DNA of 64,000 bases from Phycisphaerae bacterium (GCA_013360585.1 JABWBH010000027.1:24657-88656), one strand, 5' to 3'; shown: positions 1-8,433, numbered from the stretch's first letter. Translations and numbers: made by a program. The notes: generated by a model not told the origin, from the letters alone.

Positions 1-612
1 CTCGAACACCGCCTGCTTCGCCAGCGGCGTGAAGAACCCGTCACCGTCCCCGTCCACCTTGATGAAGAAACGCTCGCCGCGCTCGGCGTACCGGTCGCTG
101 AAGCCCGCCGCCTGAGGGTTGCGCCCGCCTCCGGTGTCGCCGTAAATGAATGTCAGACGGTCGCCGGGGCTTAGCGCTTCCGGCCCCTTCACGACCGCGA
201 ACACGAATCCGTCCCGCGGCAGGTCGCGCACCTCCAGTTCGACCCCCGCTTTCGAGCAGGTCACGGTCGTGTACCCGGTCGCCGTCGCGTCGCTCGTCTG
301 CGGAGGCGCCCAGCCCCAGAACTTCGATATCGACAGCCGCACGCCGCCGCCAACCGCGATCCCCGCCTCCCCCACCGTGTACGTGCAGCGCATCGTCACC
401 CGGCTGGACACGTCCACCACCGACGGCTCGATCGTCGCCCAACCCCCGCCGTCCGCGGGCGAAGCCTTGAACCGGGACTCGTCCGGCAGCACCAGCCGCG
501 GCGCCGGATCCGGCTCATCCGACGGCGGAGGCTCACGCGTCGCCTGCTGCGCGCAGGCCGACCCCGCGAAGGCGAGACTGAAGATCAGAAAGTGCCGCGC
601 TCCGTCAGACAT
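1..612 (-). CDS. hypothetical secreted protein (N-terminal part; gene runs off the left window edge)
   Basis: The frame is open from the window edge, so it is absent from the ORF track. ATG at 612-610 shares one base with the TGA of the upstream DUF1501 gene (TGATG). The N-terminus MSDGARHFLIFSLAFAGSACAQQ is signal-peptide-like. Codon bias matches neighbours. Confidence 0.55.
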   Translation of the reverse strand, partial: MSDGARHFLIFSLAFAGSACAQQATREPPPSDEPDPAPRLVLPDESRFKASPADGGGWATIEPSVVDVSSRVTMRCTYTVGEAGIAVGGGVRLSISKFWGWAPPQTSDATATGYTTVTCSKAGVELEVRDLPRDGFVFAVVKGPEALSPGDRLTFIYGDTGGGRNPQAAGFSDRYAERGERFFIKVDGDGDGFFTPLAKQAVFE

Positions 613-2087
613 CACGCCAGCAGATCACGAACGACCTTCCCGAATACGTCGGTCAGGCGGTAGTCGCGCCCCTCGTGACGGTAGGTCAGGCGCTCATGAT
701 GAAACCCGAGCAGATGCAGCATCGTGGCGTGCAGGTCATGCACCTCCACCGGCTTGTCCACGATGTTGTAGCTGTAGTCATCCGTCGATCCGTAAGTGAT
801 GCCGGGCTTCACGCCGCCGCCGGCCAGCCAGACCGTGAAGCACCTCGGATGATGATCGCGCCCGTAATTCTCGTGCGTCAGCGTCCCCTGACTGTAAACC
901 GTCCGACCGAACTCGCCCGCCCACAATACGAGCGTCTCGTCCAACATCCCGCGACGACGCAGATCCTTGATGAGCGCCGCCTGAGGCTGATCGACCGCCT
1001 TGCACTGCGCCCGCATCTCCCCGGGCAGATTGTTGTGCGCGTCCCACCCGCGCATGTAAAGCTGGATGAAGCGCACGCCGCGCTCCGCCAGCCGCCGCGC
1101 CAGCAGGCAGTTCGCCGCGAAGCTCCCCGGCGTCTTCACATCCGGTCCGTACATCGCCAGCGTATCTTCATCTTCGTCGGAGAAATCCGTCAGCTCCGGG
1201 ACGGACATCTGCATCCGGTAGGCCATCTCGTACTGTGCGATGCGCGTCTGCACCTCGGGGTCGAGCGTCCGACGTGACTCGCGCTCGTTCAACGTCCCCA
1301 CCAGGTCCAGCATGCGCCGCCGGTCTTCGCGCGTAACGCCGGGCGGATCCTTCAGATAAAGCACTTCTCCGCCCGCCCGAAGCTTACACCCCTGATGCGC
1401 ACTGGGCAGAAAGCCGCTCCCCCAGAACCGCGCCGACAGCGCCTGCATGTTCCCGAAACCCTGCGTGATCAGCACGACGAACGACGGCAGATTCGCGTTC
1501 GCACTGCCCAGTCCGTAGCTGATCCACGAACCGAACGAAGGCCGGCCCGGCTGCTGATTCCCGGTCTGGAAGAACGTGATGCCCGGTTCGTGGTTGATCG
1601 CCTCGGTATGCATCGAGTGAACGAAGCACAGCTCGTGCGCGACGGACGCGGTGTGCGGGATCAATTCGCTCAGCCAGACCCCGTCCTGGTGATTGCGGTA
1701 GCGCGTGAACTTGAAGATCGACGGAGCGACCGGAAAGCGCGCCTGCCCGCTGGTCATCCCCGTAAGGCGCTGGCCCATCCGGATCGAGTCCGGCAAATCC
1801 TGGTCGAACCGCCGGCGAAGCAGCGGCTTATAATCATACAGATCGAGCTGGCTGGGCGCCCCCTCCATGTGAAGGTAGATGACGCGCTTCGCCTTCGGAG
1901 CGAAGTGCGGACCCGGCGGCGACGCCGATCCCGACCGGCCGACGGCGTCCGCGCTCGCGGACTTCGGCGACAACAACGACGCCAGCGCCGCCGTCCCCAG
2001 CCCGGCGCCGATCGACCGCGCCGCTGTTCCGAAGAACCGCCGACGGGTCATGTCCAGATACGTCGTCTCGAGCGGATCCATCAACAC
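612..2087 (-). CDS. DUF1501 domain protein (sulfatase-like, Tat-type signal)
   Basis: 491 aa. Twin-arginine leader TRRRFFGTAARSIGAGLG. Blocks such as HSMHTEAINHEPG and ENYGRDHHP are typical of the planctomycete DUF1501 family. Confidence 0.85.
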   Translation of the reverse strand: MLMDPLETTYLDMTRRRFFGTAARSIGAGLGTAALASLLSPKSASADAVGRSGSASPPGPHFAPKAKRVIYLHMEGAPSQLDLYDYKPLLRRRFDQDLPDSIRMGQRLTGMTSGQARFPVAPSIFKFTRYRNHQDGVWLSELIPHTASVAHELCFVHSMHTEAINHEPGITFFQTGNQQPGRPSFGSWISYGLGSANANLPSFVVLITQGFGNMQALSARFWGSGFLPSAHQGCKLRAGGEVLYLKDPPGVTREDRRRMLDLVGTLNERESRRTLDPEVQTRIAQYEMAYRMQMSVPELTDFSDEDEDTLAMYGPDVKTPGSFAANCLLARRLAERGVRFIQLYMRGWDAHNNLPGEMRAQCKAVDQPQAALIKDLRRRGMLDETLVLWAGEFGRTVYSQGTLTHENYGRDHHPRCFTVWLAGGGVKPGITYGSTDDYSYNIVDKPVEVHDLHATMLHLLGFHHERLTYRHEGRDYRLTDVFGKVVRDLLA

Positions 2088-2282
2088 GCTCCCCGGAGGC
2101 CCCGACGCGCTCTCCCGCAGTTGCGCCGCGTGCGATAACGAAGCCGCGATCGCCGCTCACAGCAACCTCCGGCCGCGCAAGCCTCCCGGCCCTCAGTATA
2201 CGCCCTCCGCATCAAAAAAACCCCCTCCGAAGTCTCTGCCCGGCTGCACTCACCGGGCGTTGAGCTTCCCAGGGAACTTAGA

Positions 2283-2356
2283 CGCTGTTTCAAAACCGAG
2301 CCGCGCCCGTAAGGAAGCGTGCCTTTCGGGCCTTTCACGCGGGTTTTGAAACAGCG
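2283..2356. repeat. Repeat family A copy 1 (74-bp hairpin element with CGCTGTTTCAAAACC terminal inverted repeats)
   Basis: cgctgtttcaaaacc ... ggttttgaaacagcg. The interior closely matches the reverse complement of the copy at 46725-46798. Confidence 0.8.
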
Positions 2357-2840
2357 ACTTAATGATCATGCGGAGACCTCCCTGCGACAGGCCCCGCTTC
2401 GCCGGGGCGGCCGCCCCTCACCCGTCCCGGGAGAATCTTCCGAGAATCGTCTCCCCCGAGGGTCATCCGAGAGTCGTAGCCCCGGCAGGGGCGTCAGACA
2501 ACAGCCCAGCCCGCAAGGGCTGGGAAGGAAGCCGTCGCGGACAATCCGCAAGTCCCGGAGGGACGACAGAAGTTAAGCGAGGAAGGATCGCCGCCGATCC
2601 GCCGCCCCTCCTGGACCCAGGCGCACATCGCGTCCCAACGACAGAACATCCCGGATCCCGGGCACCGAAGTCCGATAGGGACTCAGCATCCCTCTATCAA
2701 CCGCGGGATACCGAACACCAGGCCGGAACGAGGGCGGACGCCCCCCGCTAACCCTGACGCAAATCTGGTGTCCTCTTTCCCGGAAGCCGCCGGGCGCGGT
2801 TTGAATTGAACGCCCGCACGGCCTTCAGAGGAGGTTTGTC

Positions 2841-3113
2841 ATGCGAAGTCGAATGCTCAAACTCGGACGCACGCTCTTCACCGTCGCCGCCGGTGCGGCG
2901 GTCCTCAGCGGTTCCTGCAACGTCGGCCTCGACGGCGTCAGCGTCTTCCTCACCCCGGGCGGCGACTGCTGCGATGACGGGTACTTCGAGTTCGGAGGCT
3001 CGTTCTACGAGGAGGAGTATTACGAGGAGTATTACTACGACGACCTGTTCTACGAAGAAGACTACTACTACGAGGAAGAGTATTACTACGACGACGGGTA
3101 TTACTACCCCTGA
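2841..3113 (+). CDS. small secreted (possibly lipo-) protein with an extreme Tyr/Glu/Asp-rich C-terminus
   Basis: Strong SD agaggagg sits 6 nt upstream of the ATG. Signal peptide MRSRMLKLGRTLFTVAAGAAVLSGSC. Tail is FYEEEYYEEYYYDDLFYEEDYYYEEEYYYDDGYYYP. Confidence 0.55.
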   Translation: MRSRMLKLGRTLFTVAAGAAVLSGSCNVGLDGVSVFLTPGGDCCDDGYFEFGGSFYEEEYYEEYYYDDLFYEEDYYYEEEYYYDDGYYYP

Positions 3114-3129
3114 AGCATTACTCGCACCG

Positions 3130-3207
3130 GTGGAGCGCCCGCCTGAAGAGCGGAACGCCCCCGAACCGCAGGCTTCAGCCCGTGCAAATGCTCGTTCAGC
3201 GTCGCGG
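3130..3207. repeat. Repeat family B, diverged partial copy
   Basis: gtggagcgccc ... ccgcaggcttcagcccgtgcaaatgctcgttcagcg aligns with the family B core (gtggagcgccc...ccgcgggcttcagcccgcgcgaacgcttgtttcgcagcg), with an insertion and substitutions. Confidence 0.4.
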
Positions 3208-3553
3208 GTGACAAATCGGGCGGGGTGACGCTGGCCCATCCCCTCGCCCGATTCGATAAAGTTCGGCGCGCGAGCCGTCTTGTTGTCGATGCGGACTCCC
3301 AAGAGGACGCCGGGGGACCGGGCATGTTCGCCGCGAACACGAGGGTGGAAATCCCAACCTCCCTCGCACAGTCGCCCTTAAAGTGTAAATCGTTTTTTGA
3401 TTGAATTTCCCTCTTTTATGGGTCATACTGAGGTCAGTTCGCCCGGAGCGAGCCGTCCTGATTGAGCCGGGGAAATGTGTCGCAGAGACGCCTCCGCGGC
3501 CACGAGGGGCTCCCGTCAGCTCGCACCAACAACCGCATCATGGGAGGATACAA

Positions 3554-4003
3554 ATGTCCAGCGCACGCGCATCGTACCGTGTCACCTCAAACATCACGAT
3601 GTTCAGTATTTCAGCGATCCTCAGTCTCCCGGCTCCAAGAGCTTTCGCGCAGGGATCCGCTGTTTGTGGGTAGGATGGCGGAGACACTTGTACTGCGGAC
3701 CTTCTCTGCACCTGTTTCAGCGGCACATGCACACAATACCGTCAGTTCTCGTTCACGCTTCAATTCGTGGACCTCGATGAAGAAGGGTACTGCTGGGAAG
3801 TTATTCCCGATGAAGTCTGCCACTTTGTCTGCGACTGTCCTCGTGCCGGTCAAACATGTGGCGCGACTCAGCCATGTACGCAACCGAACCCTTTGACATG
3901 CCTCCCGGTGGCCGACCCCGTATTGGTGGATGATTATGTGTACTCTTCGGCGTGCTGTAGTTGCGACTGCGGCATTAGCGCATGCTGTCCTGTAGAACCA
4001 TAA
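3554..4003 (+). pseudogene. Cys-rich secreted protein ORF interrupted by one in-frame TAG (3671-3673)
   Basis: SD gggagga precedes ATG 3554. It encodes a signal peptide (MSSARASYRVTSNITMFSISAILSLPAPRAFA/QG). After the TAG at 3671 the same frame stays open to 4003. That stretch encodes a very Cys-rich sequence (DTCTADLLCTCFSGTC...ACCSCDCGISACCPVEP). Track ORFs 3401..3673 and 3767..4003 are in the same frame. Confidence 0.4.
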
Positions 4004-4085
4004 TCATGATGTCCTTGCCTTGCTCGCAGCAGGTCAAACGTGACAACCCTTCTGTTGTTCATTCTTTGCTTCAGGGAGCGGCCGC

Positions 4086-4484
4086 ATGACCTTCATTGTA
4101 ATAGGTTTGTTATCTCTTTTGCAGACTCGTTCCCAACCCATTCCTGTACGGCAGATGGAGATCCCGGCGGAATTGCAGCGGATGCAGGACTACCGGGCGA
4201 AGCTCTTTGACCGCGCGAGAATCGAAGGGTCGTTGGAAAGCGGCGGCGTGACGGGATCCTTTTCGTCTCAGTATGCCGGCGAGGATTTTCTCCTTGTGTC
4301 GCACGGAACGGAAACGGGTCTCGCGAACATTCACATGGACGGCTGGCAGTATGCCTACTCCAAGCGCCGGCTGCTTTTCAAGGATAACCAACAATGGGGC
4401 TATCAATCAGAGCATATAATACTTGACTTATCTGGTATTGCGGGCAATCTACCTGGATGGCCACTCAAGACGCACGGACGTTAA
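4086..4484 (+). CDS. hypothetical protein (hydrophobic N-terminus)
   Basis: 132-aa ORF in a visibly AT-richer patch. No family recognised. Confidence 0.35.
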   Translation: MTFIVIGLLSLLQTRSQPIPVRQMEIPAELQRMQDYRAKLFDRARIEGSLESGGVTGSFSSQYAGEDFLLVSHGTETGLANIHMDGWQYAYSKRRLLFKDNQQWGYQSEHIILDLSGIAGNLPGWPLKTHGR

Positions 4485-4690
4485 TGCCAGAGGCCCAGGA
4501 GGCGCTTCGGCGGCGGGTGATGGAGGTGATCGACAACGGGATGAAGCCCGCGGCGGCGGCGCGGACGTTCGGCGTCAGCCGTCAGGCGATTCACAACTGG
4601 AGGACGCGGCGATCGCGCGGCGGACCCGACCCGCTCAAGTCGCGCAAGCACGGACGACCGCCCTGCCGCCGGAAGCGGCGATCCGTTTGA
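4457..4690 (+). pseudogene. IS630-family transposase remnant (N-terminal HTH only)
   Basis: The 77-aa ORF contains LMPEAQEALRRRVMEVIDNGMKPAAAARTFGVSRQAIHNWRTRRSRGGPDPLKSRKHGRP. This matches the N-terminal HTH pattern of IS630/Tc1-type transposases. The DDE catalytic part is absent. Confidence 0.6.
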
Positions 4691-4753
4691 ACGTCCCTCC
4701 TGATGATGCTGCGGCTTTTGAGCTTCCGATCCGGGTTATTGCGGGACAGTAGA

Positions 4754-4875
4754 GTCCCGAGTTGCAAATTCGCTGCTCAATTCGGGAGCGCGGACCTCCG
4801 GTCCGCCCGGGCGGAGCAGAGCTCTGCGCTCCTCATCAAAGGCTATGAACTGATGATTCACCCCGGCAGCGGTTT
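4754..4875. repeat. Repeat family C copy 1 (structured intergenic element)
   Basis: cccgagttgcaaattcgctgctcaattcggg / gcggacctccggtccgc / ggagcagagctctgcgctcc hairpins. Alignable with 10936-11062 and 18225-18305. Confidence 0.75.
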
Positions 4876-4895
4876 ATTGCAGATCGGCGAGCACG

Positions 4896-5714
4896 TCACA
4901 GCGGGTGGATGAGGATGCGGCAGCGGCCCGGGGTGATTTCGATGTTGTCGACGGTGAACGCGCGGTTTCCGTTAGGCCAGCGAAAGCGATTGCGGATCGG
5001 GAATCCGTCGCGTGCGAGGGCTTCGGGGTCGTCAAGCCCGGAAAGGACGGAGCGCAGTGAATCCGTCGAGGCGGAGCGGGAGGATGAAGCGGAGTGGGAG
5101 GATGAGGCGTCGGCGGTGCGTTCCAGCCACGACCGGACCTCGCCGGTCCAGAGGAACGCCGGGAGCGCGACAACGCCGGCGCGAACCGCATCGAGCCGGA
5201 CCCGCAGTTCGGCGTCATCCGGCGACGCGCGGAGCCTCAGTCCCGCGCTGACGACCACGTGATCGCCTTTGCGGCGCAGGATCGCGCCGACGCGGAGTTC
5301 GTCGGTCAGGAACGCGACGGCGGGCGCCTCCAGCGCAGCGGGCCAGGAACCGCCCGAGTCACGACCGTCCCGCCGGGCGCCGGCGAGGAGCCGGTTGGCC
5401 TGCGCTTCGGTCATTTCGATCGTGAACGAGCGCCCCTGAACCATCTGATCGCTGATCCAGTCGACCCACGCGGTCGCCTCGAAGCGCACGTCGGCGACAT
5501 GTTCATCCGCAAGCGACATCGGTCGGTACCAGGCCGGGATGCGGTGCAGGGCGAGCCAGAGCGTGATCGCGCCAAGCAGGATCAGAACGCACGTGATTCC
5601 GAAGGCGCGGCGCCGGCGTCGCCGGCGCGATCGTGCATTGTCGGCCGACGTCTGCTCGGGGGCGTGCGGCGTCCGGGCTTCACGCACGGGAACACTGTCA
5701 GTCCGCGTCGTCAT
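4896..5714 (-). CDS. hypothetical membrane-anchored protein
   Basis: 272 aa. Arg-rich N-terminus followed by one TM helix (AFGITCVLILLGAITLWLAL). The start overlaps the stop of the upstream gene by 4 nt. Confidence 0.55.
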   Translation of the reverse strand: MTTRTDSVPVREARTPHAPEQTSADNARSRRRRRRRAFGITCVLILLGAITLWLALHRIPAWYRPMSLADEHVADVRFEATAWVDWISDQMVQGRSFTIEMTEAQANRLLAGARRDGRDSGGSWPAALEAPAVAFLTDELRVGAILRRKGDHVVVSAGLRLRASPDDAELRVRLDAVRAGVVALPAFLWTGEVRSWLERTADASSSHSASSSRSASTDSLRSVLSGLDDPEALARDGFPIRNRFRWPNGNRAFTVDNIEITPGRCRILIHPL

Positions 5715-6390: not shown

Positions 6391-8433
6391 TCAGCCGCGG
6401 CTGTCCGCCAGAGCGGCAGCCTTGTCGCCGCGGTCGGCGGCGCCGTGTGAAGGATGCGGGAAGAGGTTGGATTCCGCAAGCCTGTCCAGCAAAGCGTCCG
6501 GGAGCTTCCGCAGACTTTCGTAGCGGGTCGGGTGCTCGACGCTCAGGTAGGCAATGCCGGCGCTGGCGATCAGCAGGCTCAATCCGAGGGTGATCGCAGC
6601 GGGGGCGAGGACGACACGTCGGATAAGGCTGCGTCGGCGGTCGGCGGATGTCACGATGACGTCGATCGTCTCGAGGATGGTCAGCCCGACGGAGCGAGCG
6701 ACCTGCTGAGAATTGCGGAAGACGTGGTCAATGACCTCTGCGAGGATGACGAACGCAATCCCGGCGCAGCACCCGAGCAGAAGGGCGACGATCATGATCG
6801 TCCGGGTCTGCGGGGAGACGGGAACGTGGGAGCCTCGGGCGGCCTGGTCTTCGGTGAACGTGACCGCCCGCCCCTGCTCATTCGCGGCGAGGATCGGTTC
6901 GATGCGCCCGAGGACGTCGCGGTATCCGTTGCACTCGGCCGTGGCGAGGTCGATGTCTCCGATCAGGCGGGCGAAGGTTTCCTGCTGATCCAGGACGCGA
7001 TCCTTCGCGACGGTGAGCTTATCAATTTTCTCGATCGTGGCGGCGAGGCGCGTCTCGAACTCGCGGGTGTGTTGTTCGAGAGTGTCAATCTGGTTTTTGA
7101 TGCGGTCGTTTTCCTGGCGCCACTGAATGAGGATGGGGTCATCGTGTTCGACAAGCTGGGGGTCGGCGGTTTCGATCGGCTGGTTGGAGGCGACCTGATC
7201 GTCCGCGCGGCGCTGGGTAAAGAGGCGCTCCTCAAGCCGGGCGCGTTCAGCGCGAAGCTGGACGATCTCCGGGTGCTCGTCGAGCATGCCTCGATCGAGC
7301 CTGAGCTTCTCGATCTGGTCATCGATGGACTTGATCGCGGTGGCGATCCGGACGGCTTCGGCGCTGAAAAGCAGCCCCGGTCCCGGTTCGGCGCCGTCCC
7401 GGGCGCCGACGGCGATGCGCATCTGCGTGGAGCGGTAGAGTTCCTGAAGCCCGGACATATCGATCGCCGCGGTCTTGAGACGCAACTCCAGGTCGCGGCG
7501 CTCGCGCTGCAGATCCTCGAGACGATCGGCGACCGTCGAGGGGTTGTGCGGATCGATGTAGGGATTCTCGAGACGGAGCAATGAAAGCTGCTTCTGAGTC
7601 GCGGTGAGGTGCGCGGTGGCGTCGTCGAGGCGCTTTGTGTACCAGGTCTTTTTGCCTTCGAGAACTTCACGAATGCGCGTCCGCGTGTCTTCGACGTAAA
7701 TGCTGCGCAAGGCGTCGACAAGCTTGACGCCGAGGTCGGGGTCGGGGCCGGTGTAACGGATTTCGACCAGATCCAGATGCTGAGTCCGCTCCTTGCTGGA
7801 GACGGAAATGCTGCCGATCAGCGAACGTCCGAGCGCTTCGGCGCGGGCCCGCGCATCCGGCGAGAGTTCGTCGTCGGGGCCGCGGTCGCTCAGGTCGATC
7901 AGCCCGAGCTTGATGACCGCCTTCGTCATCGCGGCGGGCGCTACGATGTCGCGTTCGAGCGTCTGACGGAAGTAGGCGAACGAGCCGATGCCTTCGGTGG
8001 TCGGCAGGTCGATCAGGATCGGGTCGTCGCGGCGCTCAAAGCGCGTGCTGGCGGTGTACGTGCGCGGATAGTTCAGACTTGTGATGAACGTTGCGGCGGC
8101 AACGATGCAGAACGGGAAAAAGAACAACCACCGGCGAAGCGAGATGATCGCCAGACCGTTGTGGACGGCCTTGCGAAGCTCATGAAACGGCCGATCCGCC
8201 AGATCGGGCGGGGCGGCCGGAGCCCGCGAAGCGGTTTCCGCGTAGACCGTGCTAGATGGGTTCTGCTTTTTTTTCAAGGAACGCTTCCGTCCCGAGACAC
8301 TCGCGCGATCCGCAACCGTGTACGACTGATAAGCCGCAGTTGTGTTTTCGGACACGTCCGACGCCTTCTTAAAGCTGTTGTGGAACACAGAGGGAAAAGA
8401 GACTTCCGGGCCGATCCGGCGTGACCTGAGCAC
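6391..8433 (-). CDS. polysaccharide co-polymerase / chain-length determinant (Wzz/GumC-like, no kinase domain)
   Basis: 680 aa. An N-terminal TM helix follows LRRWLFFFPFCIVAAATFITSL. Then comes a long coiled-coil periplasmic region and a C-terminal TM helix IMIVALLLGCCAGIAFVILAEVID. This topology and the motifs are typical of the PCP family. GTG start; the exact start is uncertain. Confidence 0.65.
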   Translation of the reverse strand: MLRSRRIGPEVSFPSVFHNSFKKASDVSENTTAAYQSYTVADRASVSGRKRSLKKKQNPSSTVYAETASRAPAAPPDLADRPFHELRKAVHNGLAIISLRRWLFFFPFCIVAAATFITSLNYPRTYTASTRFERRDDPILIDLPTTEGIGSFAYFRQTLERDIVAPAAMTKAVIKLGLIDLSDRGPDDELSPDARARAEALGRSLIGSISVSSKERTQHLDLVEIRYTGPDPDLGVKLVDALRSIYVEDTRTRIREVLEGKKTWYTKRLDDATAHLTATQKQLSLLRLENPYIDPHNPSTVADRLEDLQRERRDLELRLKTAAIDMSGLQELYRSTQMRIAVGARDGAEPGPGLLFSAEAVRIATAIKSIDDQIEKLRLDRGMLDEHPEIVQLRAERARLEERLFTQRRADDQVASNQPIETADPQLVEHDDPILIQWRQENDRIKNQIDTLEQHTREFETRLAATIEKIDKLTVAKDRVLDQQETFARLIGDIDLATAECNGYRDVLGRIEPILAANEQGRAVTFTEDQAARGSHVPVSPQTRTIMIVALLLGCCAGIAFVILAEVIDHVFRNSQQVARSVGLTILETIDVIVTSADRRRSLIRRVVLAPAAITLGLSLLIASAGIAYLSVEHPTRYESLRKLPDALLDRLAESNLFPHPSHGAADRGDKAAALADSRG

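What the first reader, a model, noticed from the sequence alone, without database searches (positions are those of the whole stretch)
2841..3113. 90-aa secreted peptide whose mature C-terminus is almost entirely Tyr, Glu and Asp
It has a strong SD and a credible signal peptide ending LSGSC, then GDCCDDGYFEFGGSFYEEEYYEEYYYDDLFYEEDYYYEEEYYYDDGYYYP. That is 17 Tyr in the last 46 residues, alternating with acidic runs. I do not recognise any family. Such a composition suggests metal or mineral binding, a substrate for Tyr modification (sulfation, oxidation to DOPA, or cross-linking), or an adhesive or matrix peptide. It sits alone between repeat elements, next to the Cys-rich ORF patch.
Basis: seen in the sequence. 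Interest (0 to 1): 0.6.

Follow-up and report, generated by a model that had tools for sequence, protein, structure and literature searches.

The report
Tyrosine-acid micro-lipoprotein family of Phycisphaerales
The 90-codon frame is a real, selected gene for a tiny membrane-anchored envelope peptide whose tail alternates aromatic triplets with acidic pairs; it belongs to an undescribed family found only in one order of planctomycetes, and its function is still unknown.

Summary
It holds the most Tyr-dense stretch in all six frames of the 4.24-Mb genome.

It is a real gene, not a simple-sequence accident:
- GC3 is 0.81.
- It is intact in all four sister species, with dN/dS of 0.08-0.38 in nine pairs (the tenth had no synonymous change) and only in-frame indels.
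- It has one copy per genome.

It belongs to an unannotated family:
- At least 189 protein clusters, all called "hypothetical", with no Pfam, NCBIfam or PDB match.
- In the genomes sampled, the family occurs only in the window's own order (Phycisphaerales by the source names).
- Members are 52-120 aa and stand alone.
- Each has a signal peptide with an invariant lipobox Cys, then a hyper-acidic aromatic tail, usually with one further Cys pair.

The tail is patterned (aromatic triplets, acidic doublets, period 5). AlphaFold2 gives no fold.

No neighbour gene is conserved over 28 loci, and there is no modifying enzyme nearby. At least nine members use Phe and no Tyr, so Tyr-specific chemistry is not the family's conserved requirement.

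My best reading is a lipid-anchored, disordered polyanion that binds cations or envelope partners multivalently. That function is inferred, not shown.

The parts
2741..2840 (+). Conserved upstream block (presumed promoter and 5' leader). It holds CTAAC (2748-2752), then 17 nt, then GTC (2770-2772; an ECF-sigma-like spacing, inferred only), and the Shine-Dalgarno site AGGAGG at 2829-2834.
   Evidence: DNA homology to the sister species G002 and G004 starts at 2741/2747 and nowhere earlier. The five-species alignment keeps CCGCT[AC]ACCC...GTGTC and the Shine-Dalgarno site. The sigma-70 scan found no promoter in 2100-4600.
2841..2915 (+). Signal peptide, residues 1-25 (MRSRMLKLGR / TLFTVAAGAAVL / SGS).
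   Evidence: Sequence. It is the only helix in the AlphaFold2 model, at residues 2-23. It meets the PS00013-type lipoprotein rule.
2916..2918 (+). Lipobox cysteine, Cys26, predicted to be the acylated N-terminus of the mature peptide.
   Evidence: It is the only invariant non-Met column in the family alignments. The mature parts have an odd Cys count in 117 of 119 members, that is, this Cys plus pairs. An LspA gene is present in the genome.
2919..2972 (+). Linker of the mature peptide (NVGLDGVSVFLTPGGD) ending in the vicinal Cys pair C43-C44 (2967-2972).
   Evidence: The genus alignment keeps C[ND]VGLDG...CCDDGYF[ED]FGGS. In the wider family the same place holds CDPxxGx[FL]DF[FY]RDDD.
2973..3110 (+). 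Acidic-aromatic tail, residues 45-90: 17 Tyr, 4 Phe, 11 Glu, 7 Asp. It is built from aromatic triplets and acidic doublets or triplets and ends in GYYYP.
   Evidence: Composition. Tandem periods of 15 and 18 nt. The pattern statistics come from the wider family: aromatic triplets 301 against 109 expected, an aromatic3-acidic2 motif 94 against 11.7, and an autocorrelation peak at lag 5. pLDDT is below 50.
3111..3113 (+). Stop codon TGA. Homology to the sister species ends here.
   Evidence: The BLASTN blocks end at 3114 in both G002 and G004.
2425..2690 (.). Upstream flanking dispersed repeat (about 30 copies). This is context and not part of the gene. It contains an Rfam Acido-Lenti-1 match at 2478-2524 (-).
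3152..3196 (.). Downstream flanking dispersed repeat (about 18 copies). This is context. A role as terminator hairpin was not tested.

Best explanation
The ORF is a genuine, single-copy gene with its own promoter.

Its product is made as a 90-aa precursor and exported through Sec. It is most likely diacylglyceryl-modified and cleaved at Cys26 by the Lgt/LspA pathway. That leaves a 65-residue lipid-anchored peptide on the periplasmic or cell-surface side of a membrane.

The mature peptide has a short linker, a Cys pair that probably forms a disulfide, and a 46-residue tail with net charge about -20. In the tail, triplets of aromatic residues alternate with pairs or triplets of Asp/Glu.

I propose that the tail works as an intrinsically disordered, multivalent sticker module. 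The carboxylates keep the aromatic residues soluble and bind divalent or trivalent cations. The aromatic triplets supply the contacts. Together they could tether or bridge the membrane to a cationic or cation-coated envelope partner, or condense on themselves when cations neutralise the charge.

What is shown:
- coding status, selection and family membership;
- export and lipobox signals and the Cys parity;
- the patterned tail, the lack of operon partners and the lineage restriction.

What is inferred:
- actual acylation, location and disorder in vivo;
- the whole binding mechanism.

My confidence is about 0.9 for 'real small lipoprotein of a new family' and about 0.3 for the sticker or cation-bridging mechanism.
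For: Real gene:
- GC3 is 0.81.
- Intact orthologues exist in all 4 sister species at 95, 88, 55 and 53% identity, which tracks the identity of the neighbouring genes' orthologues.
- dN/dS is 0.08-0.38 in the nine species pairs with synonymous changes, and all indels are multiples of 3.
- The identical protein is called in 45 blocks of public assemblies.

Family:
- 57 of 279 genomes of the order match, always with exactly one copy.
- There are 189 clusters at 90% identity and 121 representatives at 50% identity. Nearly all listed representatives are 52-121 aa and stand alone.
- In a class-wide sample of 301 genomes, all 10 hits lie in the same order.

Lipoprotein:
- The lipobox rule is met.
- The Cys is invariant.
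- The Cys count is odd in 117 of 119 mature parts.
- LspA is present.

The pattern matters, not only the composition:
- Aromatic triplets and acidic doublets are enriched two- to three-fold.
- Long runs are suppressed.
- The period is 5.

Aromaticity is the conserved property, and Tyr-OH is not: some members use only Phe.

Disorder: AlphaFold2 with 112 sequences gives pLDDT below 50 for most of the chain outside the signal helix, and no secondary structure there.

Stand-alone: no Pfam family recurs in more than 4 of 28 neighbourhoods.

Likely well expressed: a GGAG/GAGG Shine-Dalgarno core is present in 27 of 29 family genes.
Against: - There is no expression, proteomic or biochemical evidence.
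- In about 45% of the wider family the residue before the Cys is Thr, which the classical lipobox rule does not accept. Only 59 of 123 members pass; 109 of 123 pass if Thr is allowed.
- A low pLDDT can mean 'AlphaFold cannot model it' and need not mean disorder.
- Part of the 5-residue period could be a by-product of replication slippage in the 15- and 18-nt DNA repeats.
- No binding partner or cation is identified.
Confidence: 0.45

Rival explanations
1. High-capacity, low-affinity cation buffer or store, or a decoy for cationic toxins. The anchored polyanion simply sequesters Ca2+, Mg2+, Fe3+, rare-earth ions or cationic antimicrobial peptides and polyamines at the envelope, as the anionic regions of the neisserial lipoprotein LbpB do for lactoferricin. 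No specific partner or assembly is involved.
For: Net charge is -20 in 65 residues, and the family mean is -13. Asp makes up 25% of the mature parts. In some genera a tandem paralogue ends in poly-Asp. The LbpB precedent is in PMC3896470.
Against: A pure charge sink would not need the strict aromatic-triplet pattern, the suppression of long acidic runs (runs of 4 or more: 2 observed, 20 expected), or the conserved Cys pair. One 65-residue peptide per cell-surface site is a small store unless it is very abundant.
Confidence: 0.2
2. Substrate for tyrosine modification, which creates the active form. The options are sulfation as in RaxX and eukaryotic acidic Tyr clusters, oxidation to DOPA, or dityrosine cross-linking into a matrix as in the spore-coat protein CotC or oocyst-wall proteins.
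For: Every Tyr in the window's peptide is flanked by acidic residues, which is the classical sulfation context (established knowledge; the RaxX/RaxST precedent is in PMC4646787). The genome has three Sulfotransfer_3 homologues.
Against: - None of those sulfotransferases is on the gene's contig.
- No sulfotransferase, oxidase or radical-SAM enzyme ranks among the recurrent Pfam families of the flanking genes at 28 loci; only the first 25 of 120 matched families were listed.
- At least nine family members have no Tyr, and 23 of 214 have under 30% Tyr among their aromatic residues.
- The peptide leaves the cytoplasm by Sec, whereas the only known bacterial Tyr sulfation is cytoplasmic and coupled to a peptidase-containing ABC exporter.
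- No tyrosinase was found, though the control for that search was uninformative.
Confidence: 0.08
3. Precursor of a ribosomally made, post-translationally modified or signalling peptide. The conserved N-terminus would be a leader and the variable tail the core, released into the medium.
For: The N-terminal 40 residues are much better conserved than the tail. The peptide is small.
Against: The N-terminus is a typical Sec/lipobox signal with a basic n-region. No maturase, protease or exporter is conserved nearby. The gene has one copy per genome and no cluster.
Confidence: 0.05
4. Accidental open frame in a simple-sequence tract, or the antisense 184-aa frame (2748-3302, -) is the real gene.
For: There are tandem 15- and 18-nt repeats. 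The antisense frame is open, because reverse complements of TAC/GAC/GAG codons never give stops.
Against: - The sense frame shows purifying selection and only in-frame indels.
- The sense frame is conserved across an order with unrelated nucleotide sequences.
- Sense GC3 is 0.81. The antisense frame reading the same codon triplets has as its third positions the complement of sense first positions, GC 0.57.
- The first 63 codons of the antisense ORF (3115-3302) lie outside the block conserved in sister species.
Confidence: 0.02

Closest known systems
Small bacterial lipoproteins processed by Lgt/LspA (for example the E. coli Lpp, LptM/YifL and OsmB class)
   Same: All share a short precursor, a basic and hydrophobic signal, a lipobox with an invariant Cys at position 26, and a mature part of about 50-65 residues. 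The gene stands alone with a strong Shine-Dalgarno site.
   Different: There is no sequence relation (Pfam and NCBIfam gave nothing). No known small lipoprotein has a tail of about 35% aromatic and about 40% acidic residues. In much of the family the -1 residue is Thr.
Anionic low-complexity regions of the neisserial surface lipoprotein LbpB (PMC3896470, PMC5352143)
   Same: Both are lipid-anchored envelope proteins that carry clustered Asp/Glu stretches. In LbpB these bind cationic ligands.
   Different: In LbpB the acidic clusters are loops in a large folded bilobed receptor and are not aromatic-rich. Here the acidic-aromatic tract is essentially the whole protein. There is no homology.
Tyrosine-sulfated acidic peptides (bacterial RaxX with RaxST/RaxB, PMC4646787; eukaryotic sulfotyrosine clusters, PMC9372746)
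   Same: Tyr is embedded in Asp/Glu, and the product is a small exported peptide.
   Different: There is no linked sulfotransferase or peptidase-containing exporter. Export is by a Sec/lipobox signal. Family members without any Tyr exist.
Tyr-rich cross-linked structural proteins (Bacillus spore-coat CotC/CotU; apicomplexan oocyst-wall Tyr-rich proteins, PMC8531782)
   Same: They are small proteins with 25-30% Tyr mixed with charged residues.
   Different: Those proteins are Lys- or His-rich as well as acidic, are not lipoproteins, and depend on Tyr. Here Phe substitutes freely across the family.
Pentapeptide-repeat proteins (Pfam PF00805)
   Same: The period is five residues and the surface is strongly acidic.
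   Different: There is no Pfam match. The repeat is aromatic3-acidic2 and not A(D/N)LXX. AlphaFold2 predicts no beta-helix. Only 6-8 repeats are present.

Membership tests
Bacterial lipoprotein (Lgt/LspA substrate) | N-terminal signal with K/R in the first 7 residues and an uncharged hydrophobic stretch | tested here: met
   MRSRMLKLGR followed by TLFTVAAGAAVL. AlphaFold2 models a helix at residues 2-23.
Bacterial lipoprotein (Lgt/LspA substrate) | Lipobox [LIVMFWSTAG]2-[LIVMFYSTAGCQ]-[AGS]-C with the Cys at position 15-35 (PROSITE PS00013-type rule, recalled from memory and coded) | tested here: met
   The window protein and its genus orthologues pass, with Cys26 or Cys27. In the wider family 59 of 123 pass, and 109 of 123 pass if Thr is allowed at -1.
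Bacterial lipoprotein (Lgt/LspA substrate) | The Cys is invariant and has a role apart from disulfide pairing | tested here: met
   It is the only invariant non-Met column. The Cys count of the mature parts is odd in 117 of 119 members.
Bacterial lipoprotein (Lgt/LspA substrate) | The processing machinery is present in the genome | tested here: met
   Peptidase_A8 (LspA) matches at 95 bits on contig C24. Lgt and Lnt were not searched.
Bacterial lipoprotein (Lgt/LspA substrate) | Acylation of the Cys and globomycin-sensitive cleavage | not testable with these tools
   This needs expression and mass spectrometry.
RiPP precursor | A maturase, protease or exporter gene is clustered with the precursor | tested here: not met
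   Among 101 flanking proteins from 28 loci, the commonest Pfam family is HEAT_2, in 4 loci. No radical-SAM, YcaO, lanthionine or PCAT family appears among the 25 families listed.
RaxX-type sulfated peptide | An adjacent tyrosyl sulfotransferase and a peptidase-containing ABC exporter; a conserved target Tyr | tested here: not met
   The sulfotransferase homologues lie on contigs C63, C70 and C42, not on C60. None recurs near family genes. Members without Tyr exist.
Tyr-cross-linked matrix proteins | Dependence on Tyr and a partner oxidase or peroxidase | tested here: inconclusive
   Tyr is dispensable in at least nine family members. No tyrosinase was found, but the control search rang nowhere. 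Laccases and peroxidases were not searched.
Pentapeptide-repeat proteins (PF00805) | A match to the Pfam model and a right-handed quadrilateral beta-helix | tested here: not met
   There is no Pfam hit at E up to 0.1. The AlphaFold2 model has no strands. Only the 5-residue period is shared.
Acidic cation-binding low-complexity proteins | Measured multivalent cation binding | not testable with these tools
   Only the composition is shown: net charge -20, with 31% Asp+Glu in the mature part.

The most novel reading that the evidence does not exclude
The aromatic3-acidic2 pentad is the unit of a structure or material that has not been described. One form would be a cation-dependent fold, such as a short solenoid or zipper in which Asp/Glu pairs chelate Ca2+ or another metal at the turns and the aromatic triplets stack. 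The other would be a lipid-anchored, cation-triggered condensate or gel. That would give Phycisphaerales a lineage-specific envelope 'glue' layer. The gene, with its own 100-bp promoter block, would behave as a self-contained module that relocates between repeat-rich intergenic sites.
Probability: 0.12. Interest if true: 0.75.

Novelty: new variant of a known kind. Interest (0 to 1): 0.5.

Why it matters
Small proteins of uncultured bacteria are mostly ignored, and low-complexity ones are usually dismissed as annotation noise. This one is clearly selected. It has one copy per genome, carries strong translation signals, and defines a family restricted to one order of planctomycetes, whose envelope biology is poorly understood.

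Its design is a lipid anchor plus a strictly patterned acidic-aromatic tail. Among characterised bacterial envelope proteins I know of no equivalent. The design echoes sticker-spacer sequences, mineral-binding peptides and sulfotyrosine clusters of eukaryotes.

If the tail binds metals or assembles with cations, it would be a compact natural peptide of interest for envelope biology and for metal-binding or adhesive materials.

The Phe-only members give a ready natural experiment. They separate 'aromatic pattern' hypotheses from 'tyrosine chemistry' hypotheses.

Tried and rejected
- **Family and structure searches.** Pfam, NCBIfam and a PDB profile search gave no family. The only hits were noise at E of 0.2 or above.
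- **AlphaFold2.** A run with a 112-sequence alignment gave mean pLDDT 48 and only the signal helix, so no fold search was worth running.
- **Guilt by association.** I compared 28 loci from about 20 genera by all-against-all BLAST and by Pfam on 101 flanking proteins. No partner is conserved. I also looked for a small downstream partner. Only one subfamily has one, a poly-Asp paralogue; the window has none.
- **His-rich partner.** None is present here.
- **The search for related loci.** A subfamily alignment worked but returned only MAGs.
- **Rfam.** Window 2000-5000 has no riboswitch or leader for the gene. The only hit is Acido-Lenti-1 in the upstream repeat.
- **Sigma-70 promoter scan.** None was found near the gene.
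- **Literature.** Four searches found no description of such a family.
- **'PLVTxxxC' signal.** I tested whether it is a general lipobox of the own genome. It is absent from G000, so that idea was dropped.
- **Rejected readings.** Accidental ORF, antisense gene, RiPP precursor and pentapeptide-repeat protein; the reasons are in the rival and membership sections.

Full report
**1. The observation**

The window carries an ATG at 2841 and a TGA at 3111-3113. AGGAGG lies at 2829-2834, six bases before the ATG.

The last 46 residues hold 17 Tyr, 11 Glu, 7 Asp, 4 Gly and 4 Phe. Tandem Repeats Finder sees imperfect 15- and 18-nt periods in 3005-3107.

I scanned all six frames of the whole assembly (4.24 Mb, 84 contigs, 65.5% GC; the window is C60:24657-88656). 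This ORF has the densest Tyr stretch in the genome, 15 in 30 residues. The runner-up has 12 and is the GYGYGY tail of what looks like a BY-kinase on contig C5. GC at codon positions 1, 2 and 3 is 0.57, 0.35 and 0.81, as expected for a true coding frame in this genome.

**2. Is it a gene?**

The frame is intact in all four other species of the genus held in the genome collection (G002 95%, G004 88%, G001 55%, G003 53% identity). These figures follow the divergence of the neighbouring genes' orthologues: 94-100% in G002 and G004, and 58-85% in G001 and G003.

Codon-aligned comparison gives dN/dS of 0.08-0.38 for every pair that has synonymous changes. All length differences are whole codons.

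The identical protein was called in 45 blocks of public assemblies. Two NCBI assemblies have the same neighbours as the window.

The antisense 184-aa frame (2748-3302) is open only because reverse complements of TAC, GAC and GAG cannot give stops. Its first 63 codons lie outside the DNA that is conserved in sister species.

**3. A family**

Weak hits in other genera all showed the same plan: a signal peptide, a Cys, then an aromatic and acidic tail.

- A 10-sequence profile found one match, never more, in 57 of 279 genomes of the order.
- A 25-sequence profile found 189 clusters among 5.8 billion proteins. Every named one is a 'hypothetical protein' of a Phycisphaerae, Phycisphaerales or Planctomycetota MAG, with no Pfam domain.
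- A full HMMER pass over 1.84 billion representatives found 121, of which 55 have E of 1e-10 or better. Nearly all are 52-121 aa and are not fused to anything.
- A sample of 301 genomes spread over the class gave 10 hits, all inside the window's own order.
- Named genome records are all MAGs of Phycisphaerales or Phycisphaeraceae.

Pfam, NCBIfam and PDB sequence searches give nothing.

**4. Anatomy of the family**

- **Signature.** The consensus is L-[VI]-T-[TSA]-[AG]-[TS]-C-D-P-x-x-G-x-[FL]-D-F-[FY]-R-D-D-D. Repeats of the YYYDD type follow. The end is usually either C-x2-4-C plus one aromatic residue, or CC...EEIVIWD/VIFFP.
- **Composition.** Mature parts average 53 residues, with 25% Asp, 23% Tyr, 10% Phe, 7% Gly and 6% Cys. 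The mean net charge is -13.
- **Cys parity.** The Cys after the signal is the only invariant residue apart from Met1. The mature part has an odd number of Cys in 117 of 119 members (three in 103). This fits one acylated Cys plus disulfide pairs in an exported protein.
- **The window's genus.** It is a divergent branch. It has CNVGLDG where the family has CDPxxG, its Cys pair is vicinal and lies before the tail, it uses Glu as much as Asp, and it ends in G[YF]Y[YF]P.
- **Lipobox rule.** The window's precursor satisfies the classical rule, and the genome has LspA. In the wider family Thr is as common as Ser at -1, so only 59 of 123 pass the strict rule and 109 of 123 pass if Thr is allowed. This is a caveat for the lipoprotein call outside this genus.

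**5. The tail is patterned**

I compared the observed tails with shuffles of each tail.

| Feature | Observed | Expected from shuffles |
|---|---|---|
| Aromatic runs of exactly three | 301 | 109 |
| Acidic runs of exactly two | 426 | 203 |
| Aromatic runs of five or more | 1 | about 28 |
| Acidic runs of four or more | 2 | about 20 |
| Aromatic3-acidic2-aromatic motif | 94 | 11.7 (maximum 25 in 200 shuffles) |

The aromatic autocorrelation peaks at lags 5 and 10. Some of this may come from slippage of the DNA repeats, but it holds across genera with unrelated nucleotide sequences.

AlphaFold2 with 112 sequences models only the signal helix. Most of the rest is below pLDDT 50 and has no secondary structure.

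**6. Tyr chemistry or aromaticity?**

Across 214 family members the Tyr share of aromatic residues ranges from 0 to 0.94, with a median of 0.62. In 23 members it is below 0.3. At least nine have no Tyr at all and use Phe in the same pattern, for example ...FFDDPCFFDDCFHHDDLFFFD.

So sulfation, DOPA formation, dityrosine, phosphorylation and phenolate-metal ligation cannot be the conserved requirement of the family. Any of them could still occur in Tyr-rich members such as this one.

**7. Context**

The gene is single-copy and lies between dispersed intergenic repeats.

DNA similarity to the closest species covers only 2741-3114, that is, 100 nt upstream plus the ORF, and it stops at the stop codon. 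The neighbours differ in G000, G002 and G004, even though those neighbours' orthologues are 94-100% identical elsewhere in these genomes. At the syntenic DUF1501 site, G002 lacks window 2281-4361 altogether.

Over 28 loci from about 20 genera no neighbour family recurs in more than four loci. No sulfotransferase, oxidase, radical-SAM enzyme or exporter ranks among the recurrent families. The three Sulfotransfer_3 homologues of this genome lie on other contigs. No tyrosinase was found, with an uninformative control.

In one subfamily a second small lipoprotein lies just downstream. It has the same signal and a poly-Asp end. The window has none.

Of 29 family genes, 27 have a GGAG/GAGG Shine-Dalgarno core. 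Several carry a TGTCAA-N17-TAnAAT-like promoter about 35 nt upstream (seen by eye). The window's genus instead conserves CT[AC]AC-N17-GTC about 70-90 nt upstream, an ECF-like spacing. That promoter reading is inference only.

**8. Interpretation**

The following is shown:
- a selected, stand-alone, lineage-restricted gene for a small exported protein;
- an invariant lipobox Cys and usually one further Cys pair;
- a patterned hyper-acidic aromatic tail.

The following is inferred. The mature peptide is lipid-anchored and largely disordered. It acts through multivalent interactions in which carboxylates bind cations and keep the aromatic triplets exposed, and the triplets make the contacts. This could bridge the membrane to a cationic or cation-coated envelope component, or drive cation-triggered self-association.

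The rivals, in order of likelihood, are:
- a plain cation or cationic-peptide sink, with the LbpB anionic regions as precedent (PMC3896470);
- a Tyr-modification substrate, with RaxX/RaxST as precedent (PMC4646787);
- a RiPP or signalling peptide;
- an accidental ORF.

Metal binding and adhesion remain open. Tyr modification is weakened by the Phe-only members and the lack of linked enzymes.

**9. Novelty and score**

The family is undescribed in Pfam, NCBIfam, PDB and the searchable literature. Its kind, a small lipoprotein with an acidic low-complexity region, is known in outline, so I rate it a new variant of a known kind.

Interest is moderate at 0.5. The gene is real, the composition and pattern are extreme and conserved, and the Phe-only members offer a clean test. 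But there is no functional or expression evidence yet.

Noticed in passing
window 2478-2524 (-), inside the repeat at 2425-2690: The roughly 240-bp dispersed repeat upstream of the gene has about 30 copies in the genome. It contains a match to Rfam RF01687 (Acido-Lenti-1 RNA) at 42.4 bits, above the gathering score of 37. A second partial match lies at 2552-2575.
   Followed up: partly
window 2741-3114; L012 9898-10256 (G002); L009 9888-10252 (G004); L074 (G002, syntenic DUF1501 site): The gene and its 100-bp upstream block form a discrete 374-bp module. It sits at three different chromosomal places in three close species, each time in repeat-rich intergenic DNA. At the DUF1501 site G002 lacks window 2281-4361 entirely. 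Within the species the position is stable. MAG misassembly at repeats cannot be fully excluded.
   Followed up: partly
L049, L050, L054, L019-L021, L026, L041 (10-230 nt downstream of the family gene): In the 'CDY' subfamily a second small lipoprotein follows the family gene. It has the same GxPLxTxxxC signal, an SSND..L[VL].DV[IL]D motif and a poly-Asp C-terminus. It looks like a tandem paralogue pair.
   Followed up: partly
window 4457-4690 (+) and 3350-4450: There is an IS630-type transposase N-terminal stump. Public gene calls for the same stretch in sister assemblies carry HTH_23 and a weak HTH_Tnp_IS630. It lies at the end of a lower-GC stretch (0.53-0.55) holding orphan ORFs. This stretch is part of the segment missing in G002.
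   Followed up: partly
window 1-2087 (-): Public gene calls show that the gene running off the window start is a DUF3604 protein. It is translationally coupled to the DUF1501 gene at 612-2087.
   Followed up: no
genome contig C5, minus strand (stop-to-stop segment of 322 aa found): A protein ends in ...GGYGYGYGYGYGYYRPYHYYNDYYHDAKDPE. It looks like the C-terminal Tyr cluster of a BY-type tyrosine autokinase. The window itself has a Wzz/GNVR-like protein at 6391-8433 (-) (weak Pfam hit). No link to the peptide gene was found.
   Followed up: no
genome contig C6, plus strand: A second exported Tyr/Gly-rich small protein...ADHRYYGGGGYYSGGGYSSGGYYRSYNYYRPAP..., is unrelated to the family studied here.
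   Followed up: no
upstream regions of family genes in L019-21, L035, L041, L050, L054, L062: Many family genes in other genera carry a near-consensus [TG]TGTCAA-N17-TAnAAT promoter about 35 nt before the ATG, plus an AGGAGG site. This suggests high constitutive expression. The window's genus lacks it and has a different conserved upstream motif.
   Followed up: partly
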